A program made the translations under genes and the position numbers. Below the pieces are notes generated by a model. The model searched no databases. It worked only from the letters and a program-made list of their open reading frames with translations, and had not been told where the DNA came from. Shown one piece after another: positions 20,986 through 50,330 of a stretch of DNA of 64,000 bases (position 1 is the stretch's first letter; each line of letters begins with the position of its first letter). The stretch lies in contig JAWACY010000002.1 in assembly GCA_038896535.1 (NCBI GenBank), positions 91,002 to 155,001 on the forward strand, given 5' to 3'. Origin of the DNA: Candidatus Anstonellales archaeon. GTDB taxonomy: Archaea > Micrarchaeota > Micrarchaeia > Anstonellales > J096.

Positions 20986-21038
20986 TATCCCACCATTTAT
21001 TTATTAAAATATTCATTTCCTCGGCATGTGCACAATCA

Positions 21039-24000
21039 TTACCTAGTAGCCTTCAGTTTTGAGATCCTAAAAATGGCATCAAAATATGCTTTCACTACCT
21101 CTCCTGTTCTTTGAATGTTCAGTGCTATGTCGCCCCCATATTGACTTATTTCTGCGGGCCATGTCTCTGATATTGCCATACTACCATACACAACAATTCC
21201 TTGGAGCAGTTCATTACTTAGATCTTTACCAATAACTGTGGCTCTATACACACCACTACCAAGACGCCATGTCTCATCACTTATATTATTAAAAACAATC
21301 TCACCATTCTTGATGCTATAATTTATCTCTCTTACTTCATTGTTGAAAGTAAAATCCCCCCTTACACCAGTGCCACCTGGAGTCATGCCTGGCCCACCTA
21401 TATCATGAGTATAAACACCAGTTGCAAGCCAACTTTTATATTTACTGATCTGCCCAATAATAATATCTTCCCTTTCTTTATTTTTTATCTTTACTCCCTC
21501 GCTCGTTTTAACTCTCTCGCCAAAAGCAAGTTGAACATTTGTAACTCTTCTAAGACCAGTTAGATATGTGTTAACTAAATTAAATGTGCCTGTCATTCTT
21601 CTGGCTATTAACTCATCTGCCTTTTCTCCTCCTGCTCCTACATATTGTGTCCCCCCTGTTCCGAAAAATAGCCACTTATTATCTTCTCCTGCAAGAAAGC
21701 CAAGCCACCCACTTGTAGCATCTTTTTGCCCCTTAGCTATATCTATATTTGTTCCTATTAATAACTTACCACTAACAAACTTCGCCTCTAATCTCCCCTC
21801 TAATGCTCCGCCTGTTATTGTTATCCTCTCCTTGCCATTAATTGTTTTGCCGTTTAAATTTTTTAAAACCGCTTCTCCTGTCTTTAAAGGCCCTAAATTT
21901 CTTGTCCACCCACCTAAAACAATAAGCCTCCCTTCTTGGTTTGGGGCAAGAGCAACAATTGCTGATATCTTATTCTTATCATCAAATTCAACATGCACAA
22001 AAGCATGCCTAACCTCCAAATCCTCTATTTTCTCTCTTCCAATACCAGCAATAGCATTAATGGTTTCTGTATCTAAACCTGCGTATGAAAGAAATTGCAA
22101 AACAGTCTTAGGATCTCCTTCTTTTTCTCCATTAACTATCAAAAGGTAATCCCTTAAAAAATACGTAAGAGCTGCTTGTAAACGCCTCCTCCCCTCATTA
22201 AAGTTGTTTATAATACCAAATTGAAAATCAGTACCAAAACTTTGAAGAGTTTCTATTTGTTTTTTTAATAGTGGATCACCTAGATCCTCATTTATTGTTC
22301 TCACAGAATACCCTAATGCTGCTAAAGCAATTGGTGCATTCCTGTATGGATTTGTATATTGAAATTGTGCTCCATATTCTAACTGTACTTTTTTAGGTGT
22401 CCAATGCTTAGTGACTTTATCAACAAAACCTTTTGCTTCCCAATTTGTTGTTCCTGGGGGCGCACTTATCCCACTAATATATACGCCCCGTCTTCCCATT
22501 ACGTCATAAATTTTACCTACGAAGATACTATAATTCCTTTGATCAAGATAGGATAAACCACCTAAGCCACCACCACCAATTGGTAAGTTCTGCCCAATTA
22601 AAAAACCGCCCCATTGATTAACCTGAAGTGCTGGGGCTGCTACAAAACCATCAATACTTGGTTTATTATGCAAGGCTATAACAAGACCATCTAGACTAGC
22701 CAGAGTTGTTCCCTTTGTTTCTCTTCCTCCTTGCACACCAGTTTCAATCACCAATCCCTGCGCCTTTGCCAAATTCCCCTCCTTTGCCTTTTCCCTTACC
22801 CCTAAGTTATTAAGATAATTTATATACTCCTTTGCTTGTTCTTGTGGTACATAAAAGTATCCTGCTTCTGCATAAGTTCCATTTGGTTGTCTATAAAAAA
22901 TTCTTGCTTTATACTCTCCTTTCTCTATTTCCCCTCCTTTTGTTTTTTCGAAAACAAGGCCAGTTTCAACACCAGTCGGTAATAATAAATTCAACTTGTC
23001 CAAAGTTGTTAATTCTTTTGGCCCTTTATAAGATGCGTTGGCTTCAACAGTCCACAAAGTATTCCCGTCGTTGAGATTCACTCTTTTAAATCTTCCCTCT
23101 GCTATTGTTACTGCCCCCGAATCACTTGAGCCCCCGCCACCACTCAACTCAGCTTCTGTTCTGGTTATGCCTGGAAAGGCCCGTTGAATGTAGCTAAGTC
23201 TTCCGCTGAAATATCTACTCCATTGTCCCTCGCCATTTCTTTCCGCTCTGTAAGTACCGCCAAACGTTCCTTCAATAACTTTAAATGTCAGAGGTCCTTC
23301 AATTGGCAAATACTTGCTCAATATCTTGTTTAATTTACTATAATCAAATGTAAAATAAGGCAAGATTAATTGCAATGCTGGTGTGGTTAAATTAAATTCC
23401 AACATTTCTCCGTTTTCTATTGTTTTTCTGAGTTCTTCAAATGTTTTTGGTAGTGCAGTTGGTATTTCGCCAGGAAGAAGATAACCATGAAGAGAATTAT
23501 ACACGGTTCTTGGAAGGTTGATATTGATCTTTAAATCTGGTATATTTACAGTAAAACCTTGTTGTTCTGTTTGTGTTATTTTTATTTTAAAAGTTTCTAA
23601 GCCAGTAGTCTGGTCTCTTTCAACTTTAAGATTTTCCATTTTTATATCTTGAATGGTTGGAAATATTTTATTTAATTCAGTTCCGACTTCACGCAGAAAA
23701 TTTATTGCGCCTGCTGTATAATTACTTTCATATAATGCCTGCGCACTACCTAAAATCAAAGACAACCCATGGCTAAGTATCTCAGTGTTGCCTTGTTTGC
23801 TTACAAAGGGCGTTAGATAAACTGCAGCAGCAAAATGCAGCTCAGGGCGTATCATAGAAAGATTCTCAATAAAAATCCTTAATTTTTCTCCTTCTACTGT
23901 CTTAAGAAATTCTCTAATTTTACTCATCGTTATACGTTCAGGGTCTCCGCCAAGCAAGGAAGCGGCATGCTTGGCTATATAAATTTGTGCGTAGTAATTA

Positions 24001-24833
24001 AGTAGCGCGAACTGTTTCTGTGTTGTCGTATTAGATCCTAAGGCCTCAAAGAATTTATTTCTAATTTCTAAATCTTTTGCCAAATTTTCATCACCATAGG
24101 GCAATATGAATTTTCTCAGTTCTGCCATTTGTTTCTCATTTTCAATTTCAATTTTGCCGTCATAATAAGCAAAAATGTCAGCTATAGCAGTTTGTCTTCT
24201 TCCATAAAATGTTGATAGAATTCTATGGAACAGCGTTCTTGTATCAAGATTGAGATTACTCAAAAGATCTTCGAAATCCTTGAGATCTCCATCTTTCCTT
24301 TTAATCTTTTCTTCTAGAACTTTCTCTAATTTTTCTCCTAATAGCCTTTTGTATTTAGTTTCAAGTTTTTTTAGGTTACCCCAAACTTCTTCTAATCTCT
24401 TTATAAAATCATCAATCTTTCCTCTTACAGTTTTTGCGTCTGCATCGGGGGGAATATTTAGAAAACAATCCGCATAAGCATCCTCTATTATTTTAGCCTG
24501 GGAGGTTAATTCATTTAATAATTTCTTATATTCTTGTATGAGCTCCCTTTCCTTCTCTGAAAAAAAGTCTAGATTAAGTTTACTTAAATATTGAACAAAC
24601 TCATTTAATGTTCTGTAGTTCAAGGCGTATTGGGTATATTTAGGCACTTCTTCCTCTATTTTCTGTGGAGCCTTCATATTAAATAGAAGCGTTAAACCCA
24701 TTACTACGCTCTCTCTTTGCTTCTGCGCCTCATTTGCTGTTTCTATTGCTCTTCTTTTTCCTTCTGTTAGTTCTTCTGTTAGTTGTGGTGTTTCTTTTTT
24801 TCCGACCGGACTTTTTTCTTGTGTGGCTGGCAT
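21039..24833 (-). CDS. giant hypothetical protein (1264 aa), third gene of the operon
   Basis: Uninterrupted 3.8-kb ORF. N-terminal 600 aa are helical and K/E-rich, C-terminal 650 aa are Gly-rich (GGGGLGG, GGPGMTPGGTGVRGDF). No Walker motif or protease motif seen. Confidence 0.7.
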   Translation of the reverse strand: MPATQEKSPVGKKETPQLTEELTEGKRRAIETANEAQKQRESVVMGLTLLFNMKAPQKIEEEVPKYTQYALNYRTLNEFVQYLSKLNLDFFSEKERELIQEYKKLLNELTSQAKIIEDAYADCFLNIPPDADAKTVRGKIDDFIKRLEEVWGNLKKLETKYKRLLGEKLEKVLEEKIKRKDGDLKDFEDLLSNLNLDTRTLFHRILSTFYGRRQTAIADIFAYYDGKIEIENEKQMAELRKFILPYGDENLAKDLEIRNKFFEALGSNTTTQKQFALLNYYAQIYIAKHAASLLGGDPERITMSKIREFLKTVEGEKLRIFIENLSMIRPELHFAAAVYLTPFVSKQGNTEILSHGLSLILGSAQALYESNYTAGAINFLREVGTELNKIFPTIQDIKMENLKVERDQTTGLETFKIKITQTEQQGFTVNIPDLKININLPRTVYNSLHGYLLPGEIPTALPKTFEELRKTIENGEMLEFNLTTPALQLILPYFTFDYSKLNKILSKYLPIEGPLTFKVIEGTFGGTYRAERNGEGQWSRYFSGRLSYIQRAFPGITRTEAELSGGGGSSDSGAVTIAEGRFKRVNLNDGNTLWTVEANASYKGPKELTTLDKLNLLLPTGVETGLVFEKTKGGEIEKGEYKARIFYRQPNGTYAEAGYFYVPQEQAKEYINYLNNLGVREKAKEGNLAKAQGLVIETGVQGGRETKGTTLASLDGLVIALHNKPSIDGFVAAPALQVNQWGGFLIGQNLPIGGGGLGGLSYLDQRNYSIFVGKIYDVMGRRGVYISGISAPPGTTNWEAKGFVDKVTKHWTPKKVQLEYGAQFQYTNPYRNAPIALAALGYSVRTINEDLGDPLLKKQIETLQSFGTDFQFGIINNFNEGRRRLQAALTYFLRDYLLIVNGEKEGDPKTVLQFLSYAGLDTETINAIAGIGREKIEDLEVRHAFVHVEFDDKNKISAIVALAPNQEGRLIVLGGWTRNLGPLKTGEAVLKNLNGKTINGKERITITGGALEGRLEAKFVSGKLLIGTNIDIAKGQKDATSGWLGFLAGEDNKWLFFGTGGTQYVGAGGEKADELIARRMTGTFNLVNTYLTGLRRVTNVQLAFGERVKTSEGVKIKNKEREDIIIGQISKYKSWLATGVYTHDIGGPGMTPGGTGVRGDFTFNNEVREINYSIKNGEIVFNNISDETWRLGSGVYRATVIGKDLSNELLQGIVVYGSMAISETWPAEISQYGGDIALNIQRTGEVVKAYFDAIFRISKLKATR

Positions 24834-24863
24834 AGAAAAATTTGAATAAATGAGTTTAAAAAT

Positions 24864-26711
24864 CTATATGAAATACTTGCAAGGAGAATTTAAAAGCGTT
24901 AGATTAATATCGCACTTATAGTCTAATTCTTTCGTTGCTCCGCCTATATTTCTTTGCACATTTTCTATTGTTAAATTAATTGTATAACTCTTTTTTTCGT
25001 CTTCACGCATATTATTAAAACCGTCCCTTGATGCTGTGGCATTAAATAGCATATAAGCTTGTTTTGGTTGAGATGTAGTCGTGTCGTTAACAATACTTAT
25101 TAATGCTGATAATTCAGCCAATAAATCACTGCCATCTTTAACCCCATACTTAGGAGCATTATCACAGCTCAAATATCTGTTTTGAGATATGTCAAAACCG
25201 CAAAATATATAACTGTATTTAAGAGTGCCGGGCAGCAATATAACTTTAACCGGCTGAGGAGAGCAAGCCAAAGATCCCATGCAATAAAACACCCTACTCT
25301 TATTGTTATCATCCTCATTGCTTTCAGCTATACTATTTTCAGGATCAGCACTCGTATTTACCTCTATTATTTTAAATTCATCTTCGCATATTAAATTGAA
25401 TTTTACTATATTATTATCTGGTGATAGCTCATATTTATCCTCTATTATTGTGCTTTGTGTTTGTGTTGTTTCTTTAATTTTCAATGATAAATTTGCTTTT
25501 CCTTGTGGCGGGAAATTTTCAAAAATAATCGATGCATTACACTCATAACTTCTGCCTTGGCCTATTTCATTGCCATTAAATGGGCATGATATGTCTGATT
25601 TTAAGTTTGGTGTCAATATATTTACTGTTATTTGTGTAGTTATTGTATAACCACTACACCCAGATTCTAATGATTGAATTGTAACATTAAATGTCAGGCT
25701 TGCTGGCATTGGTTGATTGCCATTATAATTTAAATCCCCTGTTACATCAGCACTACTGCCACTAGCTATTTCCACCTGATTATCAAGAGAAAAAGCGAAA
25801 TTATTATCATTAGGCACTACAGATATAACTTTTATCTTCTCTTCTCCATTATTTGTGACTTTTATTGTAACTTTTGTAGGGTTTCCAGTATATACAATTC
25901 CATTACTTGATAACTGAACATTTATTAATTTACAATATGGCACATTAACCGGCAAGCTTATTGAGTAAGCATCTGTAGGTTGCCTGAAATATCTTATTCC
26001 TTCCCTAAAAGAAAAATAAGTATCATTCATATCAACAAGTAAGACACAAAAATAATTGGCATTTGCATTTATTGAATTTGGATTATTACTTATTGTGAAA
26101 GTTTTGGCAAAACTATTGCCTGATTCGCCACTTATAGATTGATAATAATTGTTAACAGATATATCCCCATGACAATACATTACTGCTGAACCATTTGAGA
26201 CTTTCCAGTTATTATCATTATTATAATATTTAACATTTACTTGCCTCCCGTTTGAAATTGAGAAAGCACATGAACCAGTTTTATTAAAATAATAATAACC
26301 AACGCCATTACCAAAATCTGTTTTACAATTGTTTGATGCGTCGAATGGAAGCGAGCCTTGTTGGATAAAATTTACTGTTAAATTTTGCAATCCGGGCCCA
26401 GTTCCGCCAGTCGAGCCAAATGAAGAGCTTGTTGATGATATTACATCACCAGTAGGCCAAAACTTTAAAGTTAGGTTTGCTAAAACGTTAAATGGTTTAT
26501 TTGGTATTACTTTTTGAACTCTTACACCATTTTGATAAAAATCAACTGAAAAGTTAAATAACCATGAAATTGGAGCAATTAAATCAAAATTAGTTTGTTG
26601 CCCTGAACGAGGAGCATTTCCTGCCTTATATAAGTCACTTCCAGATTGTGATGTTTGTGCACTAAAAACAATTGTTAAAATTAAAAATAAAAAAAATATT
26701 TTTTTTATCAT
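24864..26711 (-). CDS. secreted Cys-rich, N-glycosylation-sequon-rich protein (615 aa) with signal peptide, second gene of the operon
   Basis: MIKKIFFLFLILTIVFSAQTSQ is a typical signal peptide. More than 25 N-x-S/T sequons and about 20 Cys. KVTIKVTNNGEEKIKVISVVPNDNNFAFSL resembles CARDB-like beta-sandwich adhesion domains. Confidence 0.7.
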   Translation of the reverse strand: MIKKIFFLFLILTIVFSAQTSQSGSDLYKAGNAPRSGQQTNFDLIAPISWLFNFSVDFYQNGVRVQKVIPNKPFNVLANLTLKFWPTGDVISSTSSSFGSTGGTGPGLQNLTVNFIQQGSLPFDASNNCKTDFGNGVGYYYFNKTGSCAFSISNGRQVNVKYYNNDNNWKVSNGSAVMYCHGDISVNNYYQSISGESGNSFAKTFTISNNPNSINANANYFCVLLVDMNDTYFSFREGIRYFRQPTDAYSISLPVNVPYCKLINVQLSSNGIVYTGNPTKVTIKVTNNGEEKIKVISVVPNDNNFAFSLDNQVEIASGSSADVTGDLNYNGNQPMPASLTFNVTIQSLESGCSGYTITTQITVNILTPNLKSDISCPFNGNEIGQGRSYECNASIIFENFPPQGKANLSLKIKETTQTQSTIIEDKYELSPDNNIVKFNLICEDEFKIIEVNTSADPENSIAESNEDDNNKSRVFYCMGSLACSPQPVKVILLPGTLKYSYIFCGFDISQNRYLSCDNAPKYGVKDGSDLLAELSALISIVNDTTTSQPKQAYMLFNATASRDGFNNMREDEKKSYTINLTIENVQRNIGGATKELDYKCDINLTLLNSPCKYFI

Positions 26712-26723
26712 TTTTTCACTTTA

Positions 26724-29700
26724 TTATGTAGATTCAGCATTCTTAAATAATTCTTCTGCCATTTCTTCTGGATCTCTTGTTATTGTTCTCCCCCATGCAT
26801 CTACATCTTCTGTTCTTAAACCTATCTGTTCTAAAAGCCAATTAACTGCCCTCTCTGCTCCAGACACAATAACTGTAAGTATTGGGACAAAGTAAGGGCC
26901 TACTTGAATAACAGAAATGCTAGGGTTAACAGACCAGTTCTCTCGCTCATAACTAACTGTATAAGTATTTATTAATCCCACTGATGGAATTGGGCTCCTT
27001 GCCCAAGATAAACCAAATTTTCCACCGCCAATTGCATAACTAGCTCCTGCTCCCCACATTAAACCGGCGCTGCTAAAACCAACAAATGGAGAAACAGTTA
27101 AATCTCCTAATCTAACATATGGGGACAGAGCAGCCATTCCATAAATAGCGAGGGCATTAGTTGCACTAGCACTAAGAAGCCAGGCAAGTCCAACATTCTC
27201 ATTCCCAAATATTGGGAATGCAGTACTTATTCCAACTCCGGGATTTACAAATTTTCCATTAACAAACATAATTTGTGGCTGAATAGTAAATGGCCCCTCA
27301 CGAAACTCTAAGCCAACAATTGCTGTCCTTCTCAATCTATCAGCAAATAATTTTTGCTTTTCTTTTAATGTTAATTCTCTTGGCCTCTGCTCTCTTACCT
27401 CTTTTATTATTGGTTTAATCTTCTCTTGGTCTTTTTTATCAAATTCAAGCCCGCCTAATTTCTGGCCATTACTGTCTTTTACTTCAATAAATATTTTATC
27501 ATTTGTTTCTGTTACTGTATAATTATAATTCCTAAGATTGTGAGCCACATTTTTAAGTCCTTCTTTTGTATTTTCTCCTATATTAGGTATCTGATCGATC
27601 TGATCATCGGTTGGCACATTAACGACCCAATTACCATTTTGCTTCGTGAGAGTTAAATTTTGCTGTAATTTCTTTATTGCTTCTTCAGCAAGGTTGCCGC
27701 CTACATCAGAAGGTAATATTGAACGAAATTCCGTCAAAGATATTTCATAACCAACAACTTCTGTTCTTATTATTGATTCCGTTGCTGTTGTTGGTAGGCT
27801 AACTACTGGCACAACTGGAAGGAGTGTTAAGTCTGGCTTTCTTGGCTGAATAAAAATTGGTGTTCCTACATTATCTATCATACCATAAAATTCTACTTTT
27901 GGCAGTTGCGGAGCTCTACTAACACTTTCTGAAGGAACAGGCATAGTTATAGAAAATTCTCCTCCCCACCTTGAAACGCTGCCATAACCAAGCTCAACAT
28001 CGCCATTCAATACAAAATAGTTGCGCCATATAAGTGCATCTTTTTTGTTATCCTCTTCTTTTTCATTCTTTTGTGATAGCATTAAAATTGCCATACTGGC
28101 ACTTGATGCCATTATTATATTTTCTCTATCATTTTCTGGTGTCAGGACAAGCCTATCATTTTTCGTTACTAATATATCATCTTTTGCGGCTGCGTTAACT
28201 GTTACATTCCCTCTATTATCAACATTAACTCTATAAACTGTTATTCTTTCACCATTTGGCTTTAAGATATCTATGTTATAAGTTCCGGGCTTTAAATTTT
28301 TTGCTTTAATTGTCTCTTGAATATTTTCAATCTTTTGTTGACTGCCAAACACATTTCTGTTTATATTGATGCCTTCTGTTGCTTTTTGCCATCCAGCTAT
28401 CCAATTTTGAGCATTAAATGCATTTCCAACCAGATCTTCAAATGGATATTCAACTGCCTGTATTGCAAACAAAACTGCTGCAGCATCTTCAACCGATATT
28501 TTATTACTAAGGCCAAGTTCTTGTATCAATTTTCTTGCACTATCTCTTAAGTTATTCTTTTCTGTATCAGACATGGAATCAAAAATCCTTTGTGTATTAT
28601 TCAGAAAGTAATCAAAAACCGCGTTATATCTCCTCCTATATACTTCATTAGCTTCTTCGCTTACATAACCAAAATACCTTCTTATAACAAATTCTTTTAG
28701 GCCATTCAAATCATTTACTCTGCTGCCTTTAGCATATTTAACAATCCAAGCAACAGATGGATAATAGCCAAGAAATTCTTGGCTGTATTCATAACTTGCT
28801 GTTATACTATAACCTTTACCTTTCTTCTTTTCTCCTGCTGGTTTATAATATACTCTTGTCTCTGTTGCCCCTTGTGGTGGTTGTGGCTGCAGTGGTGATT
28901 CAGGTGGTTTTTGTTCAACTTCAACATACTTAACCGGTAGCTTTGGTTGTATGCTTTCTACAAGTTTTAGAATACGCAAACCCTGCTTTTGCTCTTCTGA
29001 TCCTTTAGCAAAATATTCGTTTTTATTAAGCTCTTCATTAAAAGCAGAAATCTCATTATCGGTTTTTAAATGCTCCTTTATAATATTAAGCACATCGACC
29101 TTTTCATTATCAGGCAACTGCTTATTCATAATTTGTATTAATGCTATTCTCCTGATTAAAGGCTCTAAAAACAAGGGCATAAAATCTTCTTCTATCCCTA
29201 CTCTTTTTGCCAGTGAAACAAGCTCACTCCTTATATCATTATCCTCTTTCTTTAACTGTTCTATCTGTGCAATAACATCTTTTAGATTAACATTATTCTT
29301 CAACATAAATACAACATCATTTATATCATAACCATAATCCCATAATAAACTTTTTACATCTTCCTCATTATTTTCATTGATAGTAATATTTTTTTGTTTT
29401 AATTTTTCTTTTATTTGCTGCCACACAACATCTGACCATTTTTCTTTTATTTTGTCTTCCAGATATTCGTTAAAATCTCTATACTTCATGCTTCTTAAGT
29501 TAATACTTTTTTCATACCAGTCTTCATCCAAAAGTTCAGCAACAAATGATAAATATTCATCCGCTGTCATTGAATTCATTATTTGAGTCAAAAAATTTTG
29601 CCTTCTCATAGAAACAATTGAAAATGCTTCTCTATCCCCTGCACTTCTATATGATAATCTTTCTTGAATAAGAATTAAAGCAAATTGGTTTGCAACTGTC

Positions 29701-30680
29701 ATTGTAGAAGCTTTTGCATTCATATCAGCAAATGTTTTTGCCAGCTTTCTGTATTGCTTTTCAAACTCTTCTTTTTCTTGATCTCCTGAATTTTTACTTA
29801 TACTGTCTTTATAGAATTTTTGTAGTTTATCATAAAATTCTGAGACAATAAGATAAATAGATGCCAGCTTTCCTGCTTCTGCATCAAAAAGATGAAGATA
29901 CTTACTTGGCAATTTTCCTCCTTCTACCAATCTTTCTACTACTCCCCTTAAGTCATTCATGCCTTTACTCAACTCATCGTAAAAATCATTCATCGATTTT
30001 GTTAGGTCTACTTTTTGTTCTCTTTCTCCTATTTGTTCATTAGAAATTAAAATGGAATAACCCTTAGCTAGAGTCAAATTCAAATATGCAACAGAATCAT
30101 AAAGCTCTTTGCCGGTTTTGAGCTTTTTTTCATCAAATAATGCTTTCATAATAAGTCCTATTGTTGCTTCCATATATACATTTTTTTCTTTTGCTGGCAA
30201 TTCTAAACTTTGGCCAATTGAATCAAAACCATCATAAGCAATGCCAATAACTTGCAATAGACTAAGCCTTATTCTTCCAGCTTCTGTTCCAACATCTTTT
30301 AACTCTGCAAGAGATTTTATCACATCTGCAATCTCTTCATCCCCTAATCCTTTCCTTTTTGCAGCTAATTCAACAAGCATTGCTGCTTCTATTGTTGACG
30401 CATATCTTGCCTTTTCTTTAGGGTCTTTTTCATTCAATATACTCTCTATAAGTCCCCTATCAGTCCTTACAAGATAGGCAATTCTACCAAAAAAAGTTCT
30501 AGGCCATATTTTTGCATAACCTTGCTTTACTAATCTATCTATTAACTCACCTTCATTTTTTATTTGAAATTTGTTTACATATGCACTTAATACTTCTTCG
30601 CTTACCCCATATTTTTGTGCTAATTGCTTAACATCAATTTGTTTTTCAGTTGCTGTTTGATCAGGCATTTTTACACCCAT
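26724..30680 (-). CDS. giant hypothetical protein (1318 aa) with C-terminal Gly-zipper-like hydrophobic membrane region, first gene of the operon
   Basis: Uninterrupted 3.96-kb ORF. First 900 aa are K/E-rich and helical. Last 200 aa contain hydrophobic Gly/Ala/Ser-rich stretches (VGLAWLLSASATNALAIYGMAALSPYV, VSPFVGFSSAGLMWGAGASYAIGGG, VGPYFVPILTVIVSGA). Confidence 0.7.
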   Translation of the reverse strand: MGVKMPDQTATEKQIDVKQLAQKYGVSEEVLSAYVNKFQIKNEGELIDRLVKQGYAKIWPRTFFGRIAYLVRTDRGLIESILNEKDPKEKARYASTIEAAMLVELAAKRKGLGDEEIADVIKSLAELKDVGTEAGRIRLSLLQVIGIAYDGFDSIGQSLELPAKEKNVYMEATIGLIMKALFDEKKLKTGKELYDSVAYLNLTLAKGYSILISNEQIGEREQKVDLTKSMNDFYDELSKGMNDLRGVVERLVEGGKLPSKYLHLFDAEAGKLASIYLIVSEFYDKLQKFYKDSISKNSGDQEKEEFEKQYRKLAKTFADMNAKASTMTVANQFALILIQERLSYRSAGDREAFSIVSMRRQNFLTQIMNSMTADEYLSFVAELLDEDWYEKSINLRSMKYRDFNEYLEDKIKEKWSDVVWQQIKEKLKQKNITINENNEEDVKSLLWDYGYDINDVVFMLKNNVNLKDVIAQIEQLKKEDNDIRSELVSLAKRVGIEEDFMPLFLEPLIRRIALIQIMNKQLPDNEKVDVLNIIKEHLKTDNEISAFNEELNKNEYFAKGSEEQKQGLRILKLVESIQPKLPVKYVEVEQKPPESPLQPQPPQGATETRVYYKPAGEKKKGKGYSITASYEYSQEFLGYYPSVAWIVKYAKGSRVNDLNGLKEFVIRRYFGYVSEEANEVYRRRYNAVFDYFLNNTQRIFDSMSDTEKNNLRDSARKLIQELGLSNKISVEDAAAVLFAIQAVEYPFEDLVGNAFNAQNWIAGWQKATEGININRNVFGSQQKIENIQETIKAKNLKPGTYNIDILKPNGERITVYRVNVDNRGNVTVNAAAKDDILVTKNDRLVLTPENDRENIIMASSASMAILMLSQKNEKEEDNKKDALIWRNYFVLNGDVELGYGSVSRWGGEFSITMPVPSESVSRAPQLPKVEFYGMIDNVGTPIFIQPRKPDLTLLPVVPVVSLPTTATESIIRTEVVGYEISLTEFRSILPSDVGGNLAEEAIKKLQQNLTLTKQNGNWVVNVPTDDQIDQIPNIGENTKEGLKNVAHNLRNYNYTVTETNDKIFIEVKDSNGQKLGGLEFDKKDQEKIKPIIKEVREQRPRELTLKEKQKLFADRLRRTAIVGLEFREGPFTIQPQIMFVNGKFVNPGVGISTAFPIFGNENVGLAWLLSASATNALAIYGMAALSPYVRLGDLTVSPFVGFSSAGLMWGAGASYAIGGGKFGLSWARSPIPSVGLINTYTVSYERENWSVNPSISVIQVGPYFVPILTVIVSGAERAVNWLLEQIGLRTEDVDAWGRTITRDPEEMAEELFKNAEST

Positions 30681-41777: not shown

Positions 41778-42884
41778 ATGATTGAATTAAAAGAACTGCC
41801 ATTGGTAAAAGCAGATGAGCCATTATCTAAAGGCATTGCACTTTTATTAAAACCATCTCCGATTGTTGGTGTTTTAGAAGGCAATAACTTAATTGGGGTA
41901 TTAGATGACAGACATTTGAGCATAAGGGCAAAAGATGCTTCGCAGATAAAATGTTCCAGTGTTTCCATAAAGTGCCATAAAATAAAGAAAATCGGCAGCA
42001 TAGAGCATTTAATAAAAATTTTTGCTAACGAGCATTTCAAAGCACTTCCTGTTGTTGGAAAAGATAACAGGCCAGTTGGTTATTATTCAAGGAGCGAGAT
42101 ATTAAAGGCAATTGTTGATAAAGGCCTTTTGCCAGATGTTAGCATAACAGATATTATGTCTGCTCCTATTTATACAATAGATTCAAATGCAACATTAGGA
42201 GAAGCAAAAGCAAGAATGAAAGAGCTGGGCGTAAAAAGATTGACAGTATTGGAGAATGGCAGATTAATTGGTGTCATATCAAGCTTTGATCTTATAGCAT
42301 TGAAAATAAAACCAAAACAAAGACAAAGCATGCAACTTGTAAAAGAAGTGAAAAATATTGAAAATACAAAAGTAAAAGAGCTTTTAAGAGAGCCATTGCT
42401 TATAGTAGCAAAAACAGATAGGCTTTATGATGTTGTAACAAAAATGTATGAAAAAAATGTTTCTTATGCATTAGTAGTTGAAAGCTTGGAAAAAAGAAAG
42501 CCAATTGGCATATTAACAGCAAGGGCGATATTCAAAAAAGTTTTAGAGAACATAGAAAAGCCAAAAACAAAAATAGAGATATCTGGATTAAAAGATAAAA
42601 ATATGTGGGCCTTTGATGAGATAAAAGATGCATTTATGAAGTTGGCAGAAAAAATAAATAAAATAAAAAGCCTTGATAAAATATCAATAACAATCAAAGA
42701 AGGAAAAAGCACTTATCGTTATAATGTAGGGGTTTATTCAGAAGGCAAAATAGAGCATTTCCATTCAGAAGATGAAGAGCTTTTAATGGCTGCTTATAAA
42801 GTCATTGACATAATAAAAGCGCGGGCGTTAAAAGAAAAGGGAAGAAAACACTTAAGAAAACCGGCTGAAGAGGAATTTGAATGA
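41778..42884 (+). CDS. CBS-domain protein (two CBS pairs)
   Basis: Repeated CBS-like units (e.g. DIMSAPIYTIDSNATLGEAKARMKELGVKRLTVLENGRLIGVISSFDL). Confidence 0.7.
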   Translation: MIELKELPLVKADEPLSKGIALLLKPSPIVGVLEGNNLIGVLDDRHLSIRAKDASQIKCSSVSIKCHKIKKIGSIEHLIKIFANEHFKALPVVGKDNRPVGYYSRSEILKAIVDKGLLPDVSITDIMSAPIYTIDSNATLGEAKARMKELGVKRLTVLENGRLIGVISSFDLIALKIKPKQRQSMQLVKEVKNIENTKVKELLREPLLIVAKTDRLYDVVTKMYEKNVSYALVVESLEKRKPIGILTARAIFKKVLENIEKPKTKIEISGLKDKNMWAFDEIKDAFMKLAEKINKIKSLDKISITIKEGKSTYRYNVGVYSEGKIEHFHSEDEELLMAAYKVIDIIKARALKEKGRKHLRKPAEEEFE

Positions 42885-43306
42885 AAAAACATAGGGCACA
42901 AGTTTCATTTGAATTGCTTGCTATTATCTTCTTTATTTTTGCATTATTTATCCCTATATTATATTTTTTTTACATAAGGTCTTCAGATATAACAAGGCAG
43001 GCATCAAATGATTATGCAAGTGCTTATTTAGATGCAATTTATTCAAATGCTTTATCTGTCTATCATGCTGGTAATGGCAGTTATGTCATAGCAGTCATAA
43101 ATGTCCCGAATGGAATAAAGAATATTGCTATAAAAAATATAAACAGCATGCCAATATTACTTGTAATTGAAACTGAAGGCAGTAATATGACAAAGATCAT
43201 GCCAGCAAATACAACTATAGATGGAAAAGATAGATTGATATTGCCAGGAATAAGAGAGATAAACATAAGTTATGACGGAAATGCTATATTAATAAAGCCA
43301 AAATAA
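42881..43306 (+). CDS. archaeal type IV pilin-like protein with class III signal peptide
   Basis: MKKHRA|QVSFELLAIIFFIF has Q at +1 and E at +5 after a basic leader, the prepilin-peptidase recognition pattern, followed by a hydrophobic helix. ATGA overlap with the CBS gene. Confidence 0.6.
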   Translation: MKKHRAQVSFELLAIIFFIFALFIPILYFFYIRSSDITRQASNDYASAYLDAIYSNALSVYHAGNGSYVIAVINVPNGIKNIAIKNINSMPILLVIETEGSNMTKIMPANTTIDGKDRLILPGIREINISYDGNAILIKPK

Positions 43307-43343: not shown

Positions 43344-44609
43344 ATGGCAAGCGTTATAGCACTAATAGAAAAAAATAAAAAATTACTGATTGAATTACAT
43401 GAAAAGGATAAATCAATGTATTCAAATGCATTAACACTCCCAGGCGGGCATATAGAAAAGGGCGAAAACGAGGAGCAAGCATTAATAAGAGAAATGAAAG
43501 AAGAGCTTGACATTTTACCATTGAAATATAAAAAACTCGGCACATTCAAAGTAATAAAAGATTTTAACAATTATTCTTATGAGCATGTTTTTCACATAAC
43601 CTCATTTGAAGGCAAGATAAAAAAATTGTCAGCAAGCAATCTATTCTGGATAAATAAAAACATTGCTGAAAGTATGCTAGAATTAGAGCCAGATAAAAAT
43701 GCTGTTAGATTTCTATTCAAAAAGGGAAAACAAAGAGCATTAAAATGCTTTGGCATAGAATTCAAAACAAAAAATGTTTTTTTAGATTTTCATAAAAAAT
43801 ATGGGCCAGTAACAGTAATAAAAGGGAAGAGAAACATTATGATAAAAAGCGGTGAAAAGCCGAAAAGTTCTGGTCTTTTTCTTGCATTTGAAACAGCAAA
43901 GAAAATGAAAAGTAATAAAGTTTATAAAGTTCTTGACATAGGCACTGGCAATGGAGCAGTTTTATTTGGCATATATGCATTTGCTGATATAGATTGCTAT
44001 TGCATAGAAAAGCATGCAGGTCCTTTAAAAGAATTAAAAACTAATGCTGAGATAAATAAATTGAGAAACATAAAAATAATAAGAAAAGATATAAATAAGG
44101 ATATAAATTTAATAGAAAATAAGAATAAAACCTTCGATTTTATAACAAGCAATATAGCACAACTCCCATACAATGCTGGGATTATTAAAAAACTCAGATT
44201 AAATAAAGAGAGCATAGATTATAATTTTGCTAAATCCAATGGCTGGCAAAATATAAAAAGCGTTTTGTCATTGTCAAAAAAAATATTGAATAAGGACGGA
44301 AAGTTAATGCTATTAATGTTTTCATTTTTAGGCACTTCTAAAAGAACTGGCAAAGAAAAATGTCTCATTGAATTAGCAAAAGACAATTTCTCATTTAGGC
44401 TATGTAATTCATATATAAGAAAGATAAGGGGCAATGGCATAACAGCATCTGCATTGCCAGCAATTGCAAAACACTACCCAAAAGCAGAATTTTTCTATTT
44501 GACAAAAAATGGAATTAAAAAATGCTATGCAAGAAAAGCATATAAAATGTTTTCTCATAATTTTCCATTATACACAAAAATGGAGGTCTGGGAGTTATGC
44601 AGAAGATAA
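43344..44609 (+). CDS. Nudix hydrolase fused to class I SAM-dependent methyltransferase
   Basis: Nudix box GGHIEKGENEEQALIREMKEELDI at aa 34-57. MTase motif I VLDIGTGNGAVL near aa 196 and a degenerate motif-IV-like FDFITSNIAQLPY near aa 264. Confidence 0.7.
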   Translation: MASVIALIEKNKKLLIELHEKDKSMYSNALTLPGGHIEKGENEEQALIREMKEELDILPLKYKKLGTFKVIKDFNNYSYEHVFHITSFEGKIKKLSASNLFWINKNIAESMLELEPDKNAVRFLFKKGKQRALKCFGIEFKTKNVFLDFHKKYGPVTVIKGKRNIMIKSGEKPKSSGLFLAFETAKKMKSNKVYKVLDIGTGNGAVLFGIYAFADIDCYCIEKHAGPLKELKTNAEINKLRNIKIIRKDINKDINLIENKNKTFDFITSNIAQLPYNAGIIKKLRLNKESIDYNFAKSNGWQNIKSVLSLSKKILNKDGKLMLLMFSFLGTSKRTGKEKCLIELAKDNFSFRLCNSYIRKIRGNGITASALPAIAKHYPKAEFFYLTKNGIKKCYARKAYKMFSHNFPLYTKMEVWELCRR

Positions 44610-45166
44610 TTTTTATTGGCGGAGCTTCAGGAGTAGGAAAGACAACATTTGCTAGAGAACTCGCAATTAAAAACAAAGCAGAATATTTGCACTTCTTCAA
44701 GTATTTTCATTCATTTTTTGGGAAGCCTGATAAAAAGCATTATTATGAATTATTGAATTATTTTACTCAAATACTAATAAAGCAATTAAAAGCATCTGAC
44801 AATGATGTTTTCATTGACATGCATTATGCTCTCCAGTTAGATAGCATAAATTGTTGGAGTAAAAGGGCAGTTGATCCAAATGCAAAGTTTTATCCAAGCC
44901 TAAAAAAGGAAAGCATAAAATTGTTAAAAAGTTATTTTGATGTCTATGCTATAATGTTATTAACTGGATATGGAAACATTGATAAAAGATTTGGCATTAG
45001 AAAAGAGCAATTCGAAAAAGAACAAGAAGGAGAGCTAGAGCAATATTTAAATCTACCATTGGAGAATGAAAGGAAATTAATGCTATTAAGGACTGATCTA
45101 AAATTTATGGCTCAACTTCTTCAATCGTATATTCTGGGAAAAAGGCTGGAAAATCAAATGATTTAA
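44597..45166 (+). CDS. P-loop NTPase, predicted nucleotide or polynucleotide kinase
   Basis: Walker A IFIGGASGVGKTT and Walker-B-like VFIDMHYAL. Overlaps the Nudix-MTase gene by 13 nt. Confidence 0.6.
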   Translation: MQKIIFIGGASGVGKTTFARELAIKNKAEYLHFFKYFHSFFGKPDKKHYYELLNYFTQILIKQLKASDNDVFIDMHYALQLDSINCWSKRAVDPNAKFYPSLKKESIKLLKSYFDVYAIMLLTGYGNIDKRFGIRKEQFEKEQEGELEQYLNLPLENERKLMLLRTDLKFMAQLLQSYILGKRLENQMI

Positions 45167-45713
45167 ACCTTTCATAATTTATTTCTTCTTTTTTCTTATC
45201 ATCTATTTTTGCTATTGTAACAACCTTCTTTTCTCTGTCCACATTTATTACTTCTAAACCAGCGAATTTAAAGAATGCTTTTATTTTTTCAATTTCATCT
45301 TTTATGACCTTTCTTAACTTAACTTTCACAATAACGCTCTTGCCAGCAAGTGGATGGTTAAAATCTATTGTCACTCTGCCAGCTTCTATTTTCTTAACAG
45401 TTCCTTGTATTGGTCCGTATGGCCCTTTAAATTCCAATGTCTGCCCTTCTCTTATATCAGCATTTGCAAAAGCAGATAGGGGATATGTCTTTACAAGGCT
45501 TAAATCTCTTTCCCCAAATGCTTCATGCTTGTTCAGCTCTTTTTCCATCTCTTGCCCTTCTTTAAGCCTGCCTATATCAATATCAATGGCATTGAATATT
45601 GAATTATAACCATATATTATAAGCGCCCCTTGTTCTTTTGTTTCAATGCTTAAATCGCCATCTTTTTCTTTTATCTTGTAATCAACAACAAGAAAATCTC
45701 CAAATATTGCCAT
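45105..45713 (-). CDS. FKBP-type peptidyl-prolyl cis-trans isomerase (archaeal long SlyD-like)
   Basis: FKBP fold with an IF-domain insertion and DFNHPLAGK signature. The C-terminal end overlaps the convergent kinase gene by 62 nt. Confidence 0.9.
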   Translation of the reverse strand: MAIFGDFLVVDYKIKEKDGDLSIETKEQGALIIYGYNSIFNAIDIDIGRLKEGQEMEKELNKHEAFGERDLSLVKTYPLSAFANADIREGQTLEFKGPYGPIQGTVKKIEAGRVTIDFNHPLAGKSVIVKVKLRKVIKDEIEKIKAFFKFAGLEVINVDREKKVVTIAKIDDKKKEEINYERFKSFDFPAFFPEYTIEEVEP

Positions 45714-48947: not shown

Positions 48948-50330
48948 TTATCTTTTGCCTGCTCTTATTATTTTTTGCCCAGCCGCCTTTCTTAATAGCT
49001 CAGCTATTTCTTTATAGACATTTTCAGCAGCCAATGTTAAAGCTGTTCTGCCTTTATTATCTTTAACATTGATATCTGCTCCTTTTTCTATTAATAATTT
49101 AACTCCCTCTAATTTAACTTTTTCTTTTTTGTTATTGTAACCATCAATAAGAGTCATTAAAGCAGTTTCTCCTCTATTATTTATGATATTTGGATTAACG
49201 CCTGCTTTTAATAGTAATTCAGTTATTTCATTGGTTTCATGAATCCCATAAGTAGAATATATTAAAGCAGTATTGCCTTCTTTATCTTTAACATTGATAT
49301 CTGCTCCTTTTTCTATTAATAATTTAATTGCTTCTACATTACCGTAAGGAGTGTCAACAGCATAAATTAAAGCTGTTTTTTCTTCATCATCTCTTGCATT
49401 TACATCTACTCCTTTTTCTATTAATAATTTAATTATCTCTATATAGCCTCTGTAAGCAGCTAACATTAAAGCTGTTCTGCCTTTATTATCTTTAGCATTT
49501 ACATCTACTCCTAATTCTATTAATGATTTAACTGCTTTTTTATTGCCAATGTTAGCAGCATACATTAAAGCAATGGCCCCATATCTACTTTTAATGCTTT
49601 CTTTTGCTCCTGATTTTATTAATAATTCAAGTATTTCTACATCACCATTTGCTGCAAAATATACCAAAGCAGTATTGCCATATTTATCTTTAGCGTTTAC
49701 ATCTATGCCTGATTTTATTAATAATTCAACTGCTTCTTTATTTTCATATTCAGAAAAAGCAGCATGCATTAAAGCTGTTCTGCCATCTATATCTTGAGCA
49801 TTTACATATGCCCCTAATTTTATTAATAATTTAATTGCCTCTGCATTGCCTCTTGAAGCGCTATAAATTAAAGCTGTCCTGCCTTTATTATCTTGAGCAT
49901 TTACATATGCCCCTTTTAACAAAGCTTTGACAATCATGGCAATTTTTCTCTTTCGACAATTAACCATTAGTTTTCCGTTTTCTTTCTGGATCTGCACAAA
50001 TCTATAATATTTTTTTAATTTTGCATTTATTTCTTCATTTATCTCCTTAAAAGCAATTGCTAATATTCCACTTTCATCATTTATTACTCTTTCTGCTATT
50101 TCCTTATACCTCTTCTGTCTGGCTAAGCTAAGGATTTCCTTCTTTTTTTCTTCTATTGTATTTTTTATCGTATTTTTTTCCTCATCTACTAATGGCTGCT
50201 TATTATGAAATGCATTACCATATTTATTAGAATTAGATACATTATTTCCTTCTTGCTTTACATTGTTCCCTTCTTGCTTTACTACTTTAATCACATTTTT
50301 AATTTCTCCACTTCCCATCATCTTACCCAA
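48948..50330 (-). CDS. ankyrin-repeat protein (about 9 ANK repeats)
   Basis: Repeated 33-aa units GRTAL(M/I)xAAxxGxxExxKLLIExGADVNA. A K/N/E-rich N-terminal region precedes the repeats. Confidence 0.85.
   Translation of the reverse strand: MGKMMGSGEIKNVIKVVKQEGNNVKQEGNNVSNSNKYGNAFHNKQPLVDEEKNTIKNTIEEKKKEILSLARQKRYKEIAERVINDESGILAIAFKEINEEINAKLKKYYRFVQIQKENGKLMVNCRKRKIAMIVKALLKGAYVNAQDNKGRTALIYSASRGNAEAIKLLIKLGAYVNAQDIDGRTALMHAAFSEYENKEAVELLIKSGIDVNAKDKYGNTALVYFAANGDVEILELLIKSGAKESIKSRYGAIALMYAANIGNKKAVKSLIELGVDVNAKDNKGRTALMLAAYRGYIEIIKLLIEKGVDVNARDDEEKTALIYAVDTPYGNVEAIKLLIEKGADINVKDKEGNTALIYSTYGIHETNEITELLLKAGVNPNIINNRGETALMTLIDGYNNKKEKVKLEGVKLLIEKGADINVKDNKGRTALTLAAENVYKEIAELLRKAAGQKIIRAGKR

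What the first reader, a model, noticed from the sequence alone, without database searches (positions are those of the whole stretch)
43344..45166. Nudix hydrolase-methyltransferase fusion overlapping a P-loop kinase gene: candidate nucleic-acid end-processing or repair cassette
One polypeptide carries a canonical Nudix box (GGHIEKGENEEQALIREMKEELDI) followed by a class I SAM MTase (VLDIGTGNGAVL, degenerate motif-IV-like SNIAQLPY). Its gene overlaps by 13 nt a Walker-A/B kinase (GGASGVGKTT). A pyrophosphohydrolase, methylase and kinase together would be a logical RNA end-remodelling set, loosely reminiscent of the bacterial Pnkp/Hen1 repair logic. I am not aware of this exact fusion being described, and I cannot search.
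Basis: partly seen in the sequence, partly recalled or inferred. Interest (0 to 1): 0.55.

Follow-up and report, generated by a model that had tools for sequence, protein, structure and literature searches.

The report
Conserved Nudix–methyltransferase–kinase gene module
A DPANN archaeon encodes a rare fusion of a Nudix pyrophosphatase to an uncharacterised N-methyltransferase, followed by a small nucleotide-kinase-like gene. The same three activities sit together as separate genes in many ultra-small bacteria, so this is a real but unstudied enzyme module that most likely acts on a nucleotide-type small molecule and not on RNA ends.

Summary
A 421-aa Nudix+class-I-methyltransferase ORF (43344-44609) overlaps a 189-aa P-loop ORF (44597-45166) by 13 nt, in a Ca. 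Anstonellales (DPANN) archaeon. The fusion is rare: one other example turned up among 1.84 billion cluster representatives. It reflects a conserved operon. In 16 independent loci carrying this methyltransferase family, 12 also have a Nudix gene and 10 have the same P-loop family, usually directly downstream. Most loci are from CPR bacteria.

The methyltransferase belongs to an uncharacterised HemK/MTS-like clade. Motif IV reads N-(P/I)-(P/A)-Q in place of NPPY, and there is a C-terminal insertion. The SAM motifs are intact. The kinase resembles archaeal adenylate kinases weakly and shows no PNK/Clp1 features. No ligase, phosphoesterase or Hen1-type methylase occurs in any locus. Accessory genes are GT4 glycosyltransferases, sulfotransferases, APH-like kinases and phosphoribosyltransferases.

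My best reading is a small-molecule module: Nudix or PRTase produces a nucleoside monophosphate, the methyltransferase N-methylates it, and the kinase re-phosphorylates it. The Pnkp/Hen1-like RNA-repair idea is not supported. The substrate remains unknown. The window copy is the most divergent member and lacks a family-specific loop motif.

The parts
43344..44609 (+). Gene for the 421-aa Nudix-methyltransferase fusion protein (stop codon included)
   Evidence: ORF. Pfam NUDIX plus MTS/Methyltransf_31. An identical protein is present in an NCBI MAG and in a Logan assembly.
43344..43727 (+). Nudix domain (aa 1 to about 128), MutT/NudG-like
   Evidence: Pfam PF00293 covers aa 4-91. PDB phmmer hits to MutT, CTP pyrophosphohydrolase and related proteins cover aa 4-123. 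It is 42% identical (E 1e-32) to the Nudix half of the second fusion, P0003.
43446..43514 (+). Nudix box G35-I57 (GHIEKGENEEQALIREMKEELDI). The catalytic REx2EE is intact and the penultimate G is D56.
   Evidence: Read directly from the translation and aligned to the MutT Nudix box.
43761..44606 (+). Methyltransferase module (aa 140-421). It has a small N-terminal beta-sheet, a class I Rossmann core, and an insertion of about 45 aa between the last two core strands.
   Evidence: About 30 stand-alone homologues of 255-290 aa cover this whole region. AF2 model from alignment A2: pLDDT 88, pTM 0.88. PDB profile and Foldseek hits are to MJ0882, 3evz, PrmC/HemK, RsmC and AerE, over the core only.
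43929..43961 (+). Methyltransferase motif I, VLDIGTGNGAV (aa 196-206), the SAM-binding loop
   Evidence: G200 and G202 are invariant in the family. The motif follows predicted strand beta1.
44148..44171 (+). Motif IV region, S269-N-I-A-Q-L-P-Y276. The family consensus is S-N-(P/I)-(P/A)-Q-(M/L)-P.
   Evidence: S269, N270 and Q273 are nearly invariant and P275 is invariant. It aligns with NPPY of HemK and of P0112.
44220..44246 (+). Loop where the family motif H-D-x-G-G-x-D-G-W is replaced by YNFAKSNGW (aa 293-301), preceded by an insertion of about 8 aa
   Evidence: Five of the 7 deviations from family-conserved columns fall here (alignment).
44582..44586 (+). GGAGG Shine-Dalgarno-like element 10 nt upstream of the P-loop gene's ATG, inside the fusion gene
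   Evidence: Sequence read.
44597..45166 (+). Gene for the 189-aa P-loop kinase-like protein. It overlaps the fusion gene by 13 nt (44597-44609).
   Evidence: ORF. Homologues lie next to the methyltransferase in L002, L003, L004, L006, L007, L008, L014, L016 and L018.
44618..44647 (+). Walker A, GGASGVGKTT (aa 8-17)
   Evidence: G8, G9, G14, K15 and T17 are invariant in the 10-member family alignment.
44810..44824 (+). FIDMH (aa 72-76): Walker-B-like acidic residue followed by the invariant H76
   Evidence: H76 is invariant. The stretch aligns to the 'iiDtH' strand of archaeal adenylate kinases.

Best explanation
The two genes form the minimal, fused version of a conserved three-enzyme module found mainly in CPR bacteria and here in a DPANN archaeon. 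The module comprises a Nudix pyrophosphohydrolase, an uncharacterised HemK/MTS-like N-methyltransferase, and a small P-loop kinase of nucleoside-monophosphate-kinase type.

The most likely mechanism acts on a free, nucleotide-type small molecule.
1. The Nudix enzyme cleaves a nucleoside triphosphate or NDP-X compound to the monophosphate. In one relative a phosphoribosyltransferase is fused to the methyltransferase in place of the Nudix domain, and it would make the monophosphate from a base plus PRPP.
2. The methyltransferase transfers a methyl group from SAM to an exocyclic amino or amide nitrogen of that compound.
3. The kinase re-phosphorylates the product.

In larger versions of the cluster, GT4 glycosyltransferases, sulfotransferases (with APS kinase) and APH-like kinases would decorate the same metabolite further.

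Shown: the domain identities, the intact SAM, Nudix and Walker motifs, the rarity and single origin of the fusion, and the conserved gene linkage. Inferred: the substrate class, N-methylation chemistry, and the order of steps.
For: Linkage. Sixteen independent loci carry this methyltransferase family: the window, L002-L011, L013-L016 and L018 (L012 and L017 are near-duplicates).
- Twelve of the 16 also have a Nudix gene. Two of these are fusions, and five have Nudix directly upstream in the same order as in the fusion.
- Ten of the 16 have the same P-loop family. Eight of these have it directly downstream, from an overlap up to a 64-nt gap.
- This holds across GC contents of 0.29-0.50 and protein identities of 20-30%.
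- Homology of the P-loop partners: BLASTP E 2e-14; hhalign E 8e-34 and 1e-41.

Nucleotide theme.
- The fused Nudix is nearest to MutT and to CTP/pyrimidine-NTP diphosphatases.
- The same methyltransferase family is fused to a purine-type PRTase in P0112, which lies next to a bona fide NAPRTase. In L015 it lies next to a StiP PRTase.
- Nudix and PRTase both produce nucleoside 5'-monophosphates (established enzymology).
- Archaeal adenylate kinases are the only PDB matches to the kinase that extend beyond Walker A. They run through the D-x-H strand and the LID-like 'LLeaD..I..Rq' segment. All 10 members match the kinase-type AAA_18 model.

N-methylation. All 23 family members hit the HemK/PrmC/PrmB/Mtq2 and MTS models, which describe Gln-N5, guanine-N2 and adenine-N6 methylases. 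Motif IV occupies the NPPY position.

Intact cofactor site.
Against: No substrate was tested. Every family assignment is below the curated equivalog cut-offs, and the adenylate-kinase similarity is marginal (E about 2e-3).

The partner Nudix proteins fall into at least three clades, including NudE/ADP-ribose-pyrophosphatase-like ones. No single conserved Nudix substrate is therefore implied.

The recurrent GT4, sulfotransferase, PIG-L, APS-kinase and CstII-like neighbours fit a glycan or amino-sugar pathway equally well.

In operons with the NPPQ-type methyltransferase, the P-loop kinase is replaced by protein-kinase-like or APH-like proteins, which usually phosphorylate hydroxyl groups of sugars or other small molecules.

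The window copy has lost the family's HDxGGxDG loop, and its kinase has deletions in two conserved segments. Its activity may be altered or lost.

Two loci, L005 and L013, carry the methyltransferase alone.
Confidence: 0.4

Rival explanations
1. Glycan or amino-sugar decoration module, with Nod-factor-like logic. The methyltransferase N-methylates a free amino group of a deacetylated sugar. The Nudix enzyme hydrolyses a nucleotide-sugar or controls the donor pool. The kinase phosphorylates a sugar. GT4, sulfotransferase and a CstII-like transferase build and decorate a surface glycoconjugate of these episymbiotic cells.
For: GT4 genes lie inside the cluster in L002, L008 and L016 (two copies in L016). 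Sulfotransferases occur in L002, L004, L010 and L011, and L011 also has an APS-kinase/cytidylyltransferase-like fusion. A PIG-L/BshB1-like deacetylase lies directly upstream of the PRTase-MTase fusion. The X221 family gives CstII sialyltransferase as its only PDB match. Some partner Nudix proteins are NudE/ADP-sugar-hydrolase-like. APH-like kinases occur in L006 and L018.
Against: None of these accessory genes is present in the window (tblastn found no hits) or in the minimal three-gene operons L006, L014 and L018. The conserved core is Nudix+MTase+kinase only. The PRTase fusion and the NAPRTase and StiP neighbours point to bases and nucleotides, not sugars. The CstII match is not significant (E 7.4). 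The fused Nudix is MutT/NTP-diphosphatase-like, not nucleotide-sugar-hydrolase-like.
Confidence: 0.25
2. RNA 5'-end or cap-like remodelling or repair cassette. Nudix removes pyrophosphate or a cap, the kinase phosphorylates 5'-OH ends, and the methylase marks the RNA end, by analogy with Pnkp/Hen1.
For: Some Nudix models for RNA pyrophosphohydrolases (RppH, YtkD) give weak hits (E 2e-4 to 5e-4). The PHROG 'polynucleotide kinase' and Pfam AAA_33 models give weak hits to the P-loop protein (E about 1e-3). The three genes are truly linked.
Against: The PNK-type hits cover Walker A only (aa 1-42). The methyltransferase is HemK/MTS-like, not a Hen1-type 2'-O-methylase. No RNA ligase, phosphoesterase, or THUMP, PUA or other RNA-binding domain occurs in any of the 16 loci; the only ligase seen is the NAD-dependent DNA ligase LigA in L011/L012, taken as housekeeping. 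The PRTase fusion has no place in an RNA-end pathway.
Confidence: 0.1
3. Protein methyltransferase. This would be a divergent HemK/Mtq2/AerE-like enzyme that methylates a Gln or Asn side-chain amide, or a Lys, of a protein or peptide. Nudix and the kinase would be regulatory or unrelated neighbours.
For: The best curated-model hits are PrmC, PrmB and Mtq2. The top Foldseek hits include the peptide Asn-N-methyltransferase AerE and PrmC bound to RF1. L004 also carries an MvdD-type ATP-grasp and a radical-SAM gene of the kind seen in peptide natural-product clusters. A YegD-like Hsp70 lies beside the methyltransferase in L002 and L011.
Against: The NPPY tyrosine, which defines the family, is Gln in nearly all members. 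Scores are far below cut-off (46.8 bits against 199.1). The model's N-terminal domain is a beta-sheet, not PrmC's helical bundle. The fusions to Nudix and PRTase and the tight coupling to a small kinase are unexplained. No precursor-peptide gene recurs.
Confidence: 0.1
4. The window copy is a decaying relic. The module is real elsewhere, but in this archaeon the methyltransferase and the kinase have lost activity or acquired a new one.
For: The window proteins are the most divergent members of both families. The HDxGGxDG loop is replaced. The AFAKRGF and LID-like segments of the kinase are shortened. Conserved columns retained are 27 of 34 for the methyltransferase and 17 of 23 for the kinase.
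Against: Both ORFs are intact and translationally coupled, and they keep all cofactor motifs (Nudix box, SAM motifs I-IV, Walker A, D/H, K89-R90). Other family members show equally low retention (0.70-0.77). DPANN proteins are generally fast-evolving.
Confidence: 0.15

Closest known systems
HemK/PrmC, PrmB, Mtq2 (N5-glutamine methyltransferases) and the MTS family (RsmC/RlmG, MJ0882)
   Same: Class I SAM fold with motif I (D/E)xGxGxG. A motif IV at the NPPY position begins with an invariant Asn. A 'GG.DG' loop follows motif IV, and a 'P.SG(L/V)F' segment precedes motif I. All 23 members hit these models.
   Different: Motif IV is N-(P/I)-(P/A)-Q, so Tyr/Phe is replaced by Gln. The N-terminal domain is a small beta-sheet. 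A conserved insertion of about 45 aa (R.IR..G.T..SL..I...YP) lies between the last core strands. Scores are far below every curated cut-off. The family is fused or linked to Nudix, PRTase and a small kinase, not to translation factors.
Bacterial Pnkp/Hen1 RNA repair system
   Same: It combines a kinase and a methyltransferase in adjacent, co-oriented genes.
   Different: There is no ligase or phosphoesterase domain and no Hen1-type 2'-O-methyltransferase. The kinase is not demonstrably of the PNK family. A Nudix domain is not part of Pnkp/Hen1.
Nucleotide-level base-modification pathways of phages (dNTP pyrophosphatase + base-modifying enzyme + dNMP kinase, e.g. dCTPase/dCMP hydroxymethylase/dNMP kinase, or MazZ+PurZ for 2-aminoadenine). 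This comparison rests on my own knowledge, not on a tool result.
   Same: The logic is the same: an NTP pyrophosphohydrolase supplies the monophosphate, an enzyme modifies the base at the monophosphate level, and a kinase returns it to the di/triphosphate pool.
   Different: The enzyme families differ: Nudix instead of MazG/dUTPase-like, and a SAM N-methyltransferase instead of thymidylate-synthase-like or PurA-like enzymes. No viral copies were found. The module is chromosomal in CPR and DPANN cells. No free-nucleotide N-methyltransferase of this kind is known to me.
NAD salvage fusions (NadM-Nudix, NadR kinase, NAPRTase)
   Same: Nudix, a P-loop kinase and a PRTase co-occur around a pyridine nucleotide (PMC7824862, section 3.4.8). 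L009 places the methyltransferase fusion next to a bona fide NAPRTase.
   Different: No NMN adenylyltransferase is present. A methyltransferase is not part of known NAD salvage. The NAPRTase neighbour is seen in one locus only.
Nod-factor decoration enzymes NodS (N-methyltransferase), NodH (sulfotransferase), NodPQ and NodB. This comparison rests on my own knowledge.
   Same: N-methyltransferase, sulfotransferase, APS kinase, deacetylase and glycosyltransferase co-occur in the extended clusters.
   Different: No homology to NodS was shown. The conserved core (Nudix and a small P-loop kinase) has no counterpart in Nod-factor synthesis. The accessory genes are absent from the window.

Membership tests
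Nudix hydrolase superfamily (PF00293) | Nudix box GX5EX7REUXEEXGU with catalytic REx2EE | tested here: met
   G35-I57 fits the box except G to D at position 56. REMKEE is intact.
Nudix hydrolase superfamily (PF00293) | Score above the Pfam gathering threshold | tested here: met
   37.9 bits against 21.1.
MutT 8-oxo-dGTP diphosphatase / NudG (NCBIfam equivalogs) | Score above the curated equivalog cut-off | tested here: not met
   TIGR00586 scores 38.2 against 97.9. PRK10546 scores 42.7 against 156. These are the nearest relatives only.
Class I SAM-dependent methyltransferase, MTS family (PF05175) | Rossmann core with SAM motifs I-III and a score above gathering | tested here: met
   MTS scores 25.9 against 23. 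D198/G200/G202, E222 and D249 lie at the ends of predicted beta1, beta2 and beta3.
HemK/PrmC N5-glutamine methyltransferase | Motif IV (N/D)PPY | tested here: not met
   The window has NIAQ. The family consensus is N(P/I)(P/A)Q, and only P0112 has NPPY.
HemK/PrmC N5-glutamine methyltransferase | Score above the curated cut-off, and an N-terminal helical substrate-binding domain | tested here: not met
   TIGR03534 scores 45.7-46.8 against 199.1. The AF2 model has three N-terminal beta-strands instead.
Pnkp/Hen1 RNA repair system | Hen1-type 2'-O-methyltransferase next to a Pnkp with kinase, phosphoesterase and ligase domains | tested here: not met
   No such domains are found in the window genes or in 15 related loci.
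Polynucleotide kinase / Clp1-type P-loop kinases | Homology extending beyond Walker A to the PNK acceptor-binding and catalytic Asp region | tested here: not met
   AAA_33 (E 0.0028, aa 5-41) and phrog_505 (E 0.0013, aa 1-42) cover Walker A only. No PNK or Clp1 chain appears among the PDB profile hits.
Archaeal-type adenylate kinase (AdkA) / NMP kinases | Walker A, the D-T-H strand, a LID segment with arginines, and significant sequence or fold similarity | tested here: inconclusive
   Profile hits to 7owe, 1nks, 6ln3 and 6pjw at E 1e-3 to 9e-3 align the 'iiDtH' strand and the 'LLeaDp..I..Rq' segment. No structure prediction or fold search was possible for this protein.
Known anti-phage defence systems (PADLOC) | Specific match of the component proteins to one system | tested here: not met
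   Only generic domain hits were found: PDC-S07 for Nudix, mad2 for the methyltransferase core, and a weak VakA hit.

The most novel reading that the evidence does not exclude
CPR bacteria and some DPANN archaea have a previously unrecognised pathway that N-methylates a free nucleotide at the monophosphate level and returns it to the phosphorylated pool. The steps would be Nudix or PRTase, then an NxxQ-type HemK/MTS-like methyltransferase, then an AdkA-like kinase. The product would be either a methylated nucleotide for incorporation or signalling, or the core of a new sulfated or glycosylated nucleoside-like metabolite used in the episymbiotic lifestyle.
Probability: 0.2. Interest if true: 0.75.

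Novelty: new variant of a known kind. Interest (0 to 1): 0.45.

Why it matters
CPR bacteria and DPANN archaea have tiny genomes and depend on hosts for nucleotides. A conserved, horizontally shared enzyme module in these lineages is therefore likely to matter for their metabolism or their interaction with hosts.

The module is defined by two uncharacterised protein families: an NxxQ-motif HemK/MTS-like methyltransferase and a small AdkA-like kinase. Rare Nudix and PRTase fusions to the methyltransferase link the activities as a 'Rosetta stone'.

If the substrate is a free nucleotide, this would be a new route to base-methylated nucleotides or nucleoside-like metabolites. If it is a sugar, it defines a new glycan-decoration cassette.

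The finding turns an isolated odd fusion into a testable three-enzyme system with soluble, small proteins.

Tried and rejected
- Word-index homologue searches with each window protein returned only the proteins themselves. A profile search recovered few members. The exhaustive representative search was needed to find the family.
- Single-sequence AlphaFold of the fusion failed, with pLDDT 32. The alignment-based model of the methyltransferase part succeeded.
- PADLOC gave generic hits only, so I rejected a defence-system reading.
- PHROGs and a viral-contig scan found no viral copies.
- An Rfam scan of 15 loci, looking for a riboswitch that might name the ligand, found nothing.
- A sigma-70 promoter and terminator scan of the window region was uninformative for an archaeon.
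- tblastn of the accessory families (X221, sulfotransferase, GT4, YegD-like, PKL-like) against the whole window found nothing.
- Five literature searches found no description of this fusion or cluster.
The NIAQ-subgroup alignment worked.
- I considered a pterin (NudB/MptE-like) pathway and an isoprenoid-phosphate pathway and dropped both for lack of any specific hit.
Full report
**Observation.**

The window is AT-rich (GC about 0.30). Identical proteins deposited in public databases assign it to a Candidatus Anstonellales archaeon, class Micrarchaeia, a DPANN lineage. One search lists ORF 43344-44609 (+, 421 aa) and ORF 44597-45166 (+, 189 aa). They overlap by 13 nt, and a GGAGG lies 10 nt upstream of the second ATG.

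- **Nudix domain.** The first protein has a Nudix domain. Pfam scores it 37.9 bits against a cut-off of 21.1. The box is G35-I57, with REMKEE intact and only the penultimate Gly changed to Asp.
- **Methyltransferase domain.** The same protein carries a class I methyltransferase domain. MTS scores 25.9 bits against 23, and Methyltransf_31 scores 31.5 against 27.
- **P-loop protein.** The second protein has a perfect Walker A, GGASGVGKTT. It matches only generic P-loop models, all below threshold.
- **Not an artefact.** The fusion appears in two independent assemblies.

**How rare is the fusion?**

An exhaustive HMMER search of 1.84 billion cluster representatives found a single other protein with both halves. 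This is P0003: 418 aa, 33% identical, aligned as one stretch 5-387 that includes the linker. The two Nudix halves are 42% identical (E 1e-32). They are each other's closest relatives among the Nudix proteins examined, which points to one fusion event.

The search also showed that residues of about 160-390 define a family of roughly 30 stand-alone proteins of 255-290 aa. One further fusion, P0112, carries a phosphoribosyltransferase domain in place of the Nudix domain.

**The methyltransferase family.**

Alignment shows the following features:
- a conserved P-x-S-G-L-F segment;
- motif I;
- an acidic residue at the end of beta2 (E222 in the window protein);
- D/N after beta3 (D249);
- motif IV, S-N-(P/I)-(P/A)-Q-(M/L)-P;
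- a loop H-D-x-G-G-x-D-G-(W/R);
- F-D-F-L-G;
- an insertion of about 45 residues carrying R.IR..G.T..SL..I...YP.

An AlphaFold model built from this alignment is confident (pLDDT 88, pTM 0.88). It places the motifs at the expected strand ends.

Curated models and PDB profiles put the family next to HemK/PrmC, PrmB, Mtq2, RsmC and MJ0882, always far below the cut-offs. Matches cover the Rossmann core only. Foldseek returns generic class I methyltransferases, with AerE, PrmC and MmtN on top and TM at most 0.61.

The terminal PY is coincidental. The defining Tyr of NPPY enzymes is Gln throughout this family, so I do not file it as HemK.

The SAM pocket is intact. The window copy, however, replaces the HDxGGxDG loop with YNFAKSNG and carries an extra insertion. 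It retains 27 of 34 family-conserved columns, and 5 of its 7 deviations fall in that loop.

**Gene neighbourhoods.**

I fetched 15 further independent loci that carry the family. I classified their ORFs by HMM and by all-against-all BLAST.

Nudix genes accompany the methyltransferase in 12 of 16 loci.
- In L003, L004, L006, L014 and L018, Nudix lies directly upstream, in the same order as in the fusion.
- In L008 it is fused.

The window's P-loop family accompanies the methyltransferase in 10 of 16 loci.
- Eight loci have it directly downstream: overlap in the window and L007, gaps of 1-2 nt in L002, L008, L014 and L016, and gaps of 46-64 nt in L018 and L006.
- Homology statistics are BLASTP E 2e-14 and hhalign E 8e-34 and 1e-41.

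The loci span GC 0.29-0.50. They include a Saccharibacteria genome (L004) and other bacterial contigs with RecO or LigA. A Flavobacteriales genome (L005) has the methyltransferase alone.

The kinase is linked to the methyltransferase in relatives, and the SAM pocket is intact.

**Accessory genes.**

| Accessory gene | Loci |
|---|---|
| GT4 glycosyltransferases | L002, L008, L016 |
| Sulfotransferases | L002, L004, L010, L011 |
| APS-kinase fusion | L011 |
| APH-like kinases | L006, L018 |
| Protein-kinase-like family directly upstream of NPPQ-type methyltransferases | L011, L015 |
| YegD-like Hsp70 | L002, L011 |
| 221-aa family whose only PDB match is the sialyltransferase CstII (E 7.4, not significant) | L003, L007, L014 |
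| StiP PRTase | L015 |
| PIG-L deacetylase plus NAPRTase | L009 |

None of these accessory genes occurs in the 64-kb window. No locus has an RNA ligase, a phosphoesterase or an RNA-binding domain; the only ligase is the NAD-dependent DNA ligase LigA in L011/L012, about 1 kb from the methyltransferase gene, which I take as housekeeping. No riboswitch, viral copy, defence-system match or publication was found.

**The kinase.**

A 10-member alignment shows invariant GG..GK.T, F34, H76 (in h-h-D/E-x-H), K89-R90 and E146.
- All members hit the kinase-type AAA_18 model, and several hit AAA_17 or AAA_33, all below threshold.
- In the PDB, the only matches that extend past Walker A are archaeal adenylate kinases. 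They run through the 'iiDtH' strand and a LID-like 'LLeaDp..I..Rq' segment, at E 1e-3 to 9e-3.
- PNK-type hits cover Walker A only.

I read the protein as a nucleoside-monophosphate-kinase-like enzyme with low-to-moderate confidence. The window copy is again the most divergent member, with deletions in the AFAKRGF and LID-like segments.

**Mechanism.**

Shown: three enzymes with intact catalytic motifs are encoded as a conserved, often translationally coupled unit.

Inferred: they act in sequence on one small molecule. Two different domains that produce nucleoside 5'-monophosphates are fused to the same methyltransferase family. One is Nudix, which acts on NTP or NDP-X. The other is a PRTase, which acts on a base plus PRPP. 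The partner kinase looks like an NMP kinase, and the methyltransferase's relatives all methylate amino or amide nitrogens.

The most economical scheme is:
1. NTP or NDP-X is converted to NMP;
2. NMP is N-methylated;
3. methyl-NMP is phosphorylated to methyl-NDP.

The logic resembles phage nucleotide-level base modification (my own knowledge). In extended clusters the product could be glycosylated and sulfated into a nucleoside-like metabolite. I give this 0.4.

**Rival readings.**
- The main rival, at 0.25, is a glycan or amino-sugar decoration cassette. The accessory genes favour it, but it does not explain the minimal core or the PRTase fusions.
- RNA-end remodelling: 0.1.
- HemK-like protein methylation: 0.1.
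- Decay or neofunctionalisation of the window copy is a non-exclusive caveat: 0.15.

**Novelty and score.**

Every domain belongs to a known superfamily. The methyltransferase clade, the kinase family and their conserved operon with Nudix appear to be undescribed, and the fusion is known from two sequences only. I rate it a new variant of a known kind, with interest 0.45. It is a solid, testable module in poorly understood organisms. It is built from common enzyme folds, and its substrate is still unknown.

Noticed in passing
window 17881-30680 (- strand): Four consecutive giant ORFs (1034, 1264, 615 and 1318 aa) have no Pfam hit at E<=1e-4. The segment has higher GC (0.35-0.39 against about 0.30) and strongly negative GC skew.
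   Followed up: partly
window 48948-50330 (- strand): A 460-aa protein made almost entirely of ankyrin repeats (Ank_2 at 265 bits). This is unusual for an archaeon.
   Followed up: partly
window 45105-45166: The P-loop gene (+) and the FKBP-type peptidyl-prolyl isomerase gene (45105-45713, -) overlap convergently by 62 nt.
   Followed up: no
window 42881-43306 (+ strand): The 141-aa ORF just upstream of the fusion gene has a pilin-like N-terminus, MKKHRAQVSFELLAIIFFIF (class III signal-peptide-like, judged by eye). It has no family hit.
   Followed up: no
L004 1258-1557 and 9309-9608: In the Saccharibacteria contig, near-identical direct repeats bracket about 8 kb. The repeats are 98% identical, and each carries an identical 245-aa ORF. 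The 8 kb holds the module plus ATP-grasp, sulfotransferase, nucleotidyltransferase and radical-SAM genes. This may be a mobile island or an assembly artefact.
   Followed up: partly
L009 1145-4741: A phosphoribosyltransferase-methyltransferase fusion (P0112, motif IV NPPY) is flanked by a PIG-L/BshB1-like deacetylase and a bona fide nicotinate phosphoribosyltransferase, which scores 328 bits against a cut-off of 297.
   Followed up: partly
L003 742-1407; L007 1206-1871; L014 2572-3225: A conserved 217-221-aa family ('X221') with motifs LLLGSG, IYTTGFY and EIYIAGFDGYK is linked to the operon. It has no Pfam or NCBIfam hit. Its only PDB match is the sialyltransferase CstII at a non-significant E of 7.4.
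   Followed up: partly
L011 3506-4351; L015 575-1192: A 205-281-aa family overlaps the start of the NPPQ-type methyltransferase genes. It has weak protein-kinase-like matches (motifs APR..L.D and IDFERP). It may be a non-homologous replacement of the P-loop kinase.
   Followed up: partly
L013 2198-3406; L014 4092-5039: A DDE transposase and a reverse transcriptase lie next to the module in two loci. Together with the CPR/DPANN/Flavobacteriales distribution, this hints at horizontal transfer.
   Followed up: no
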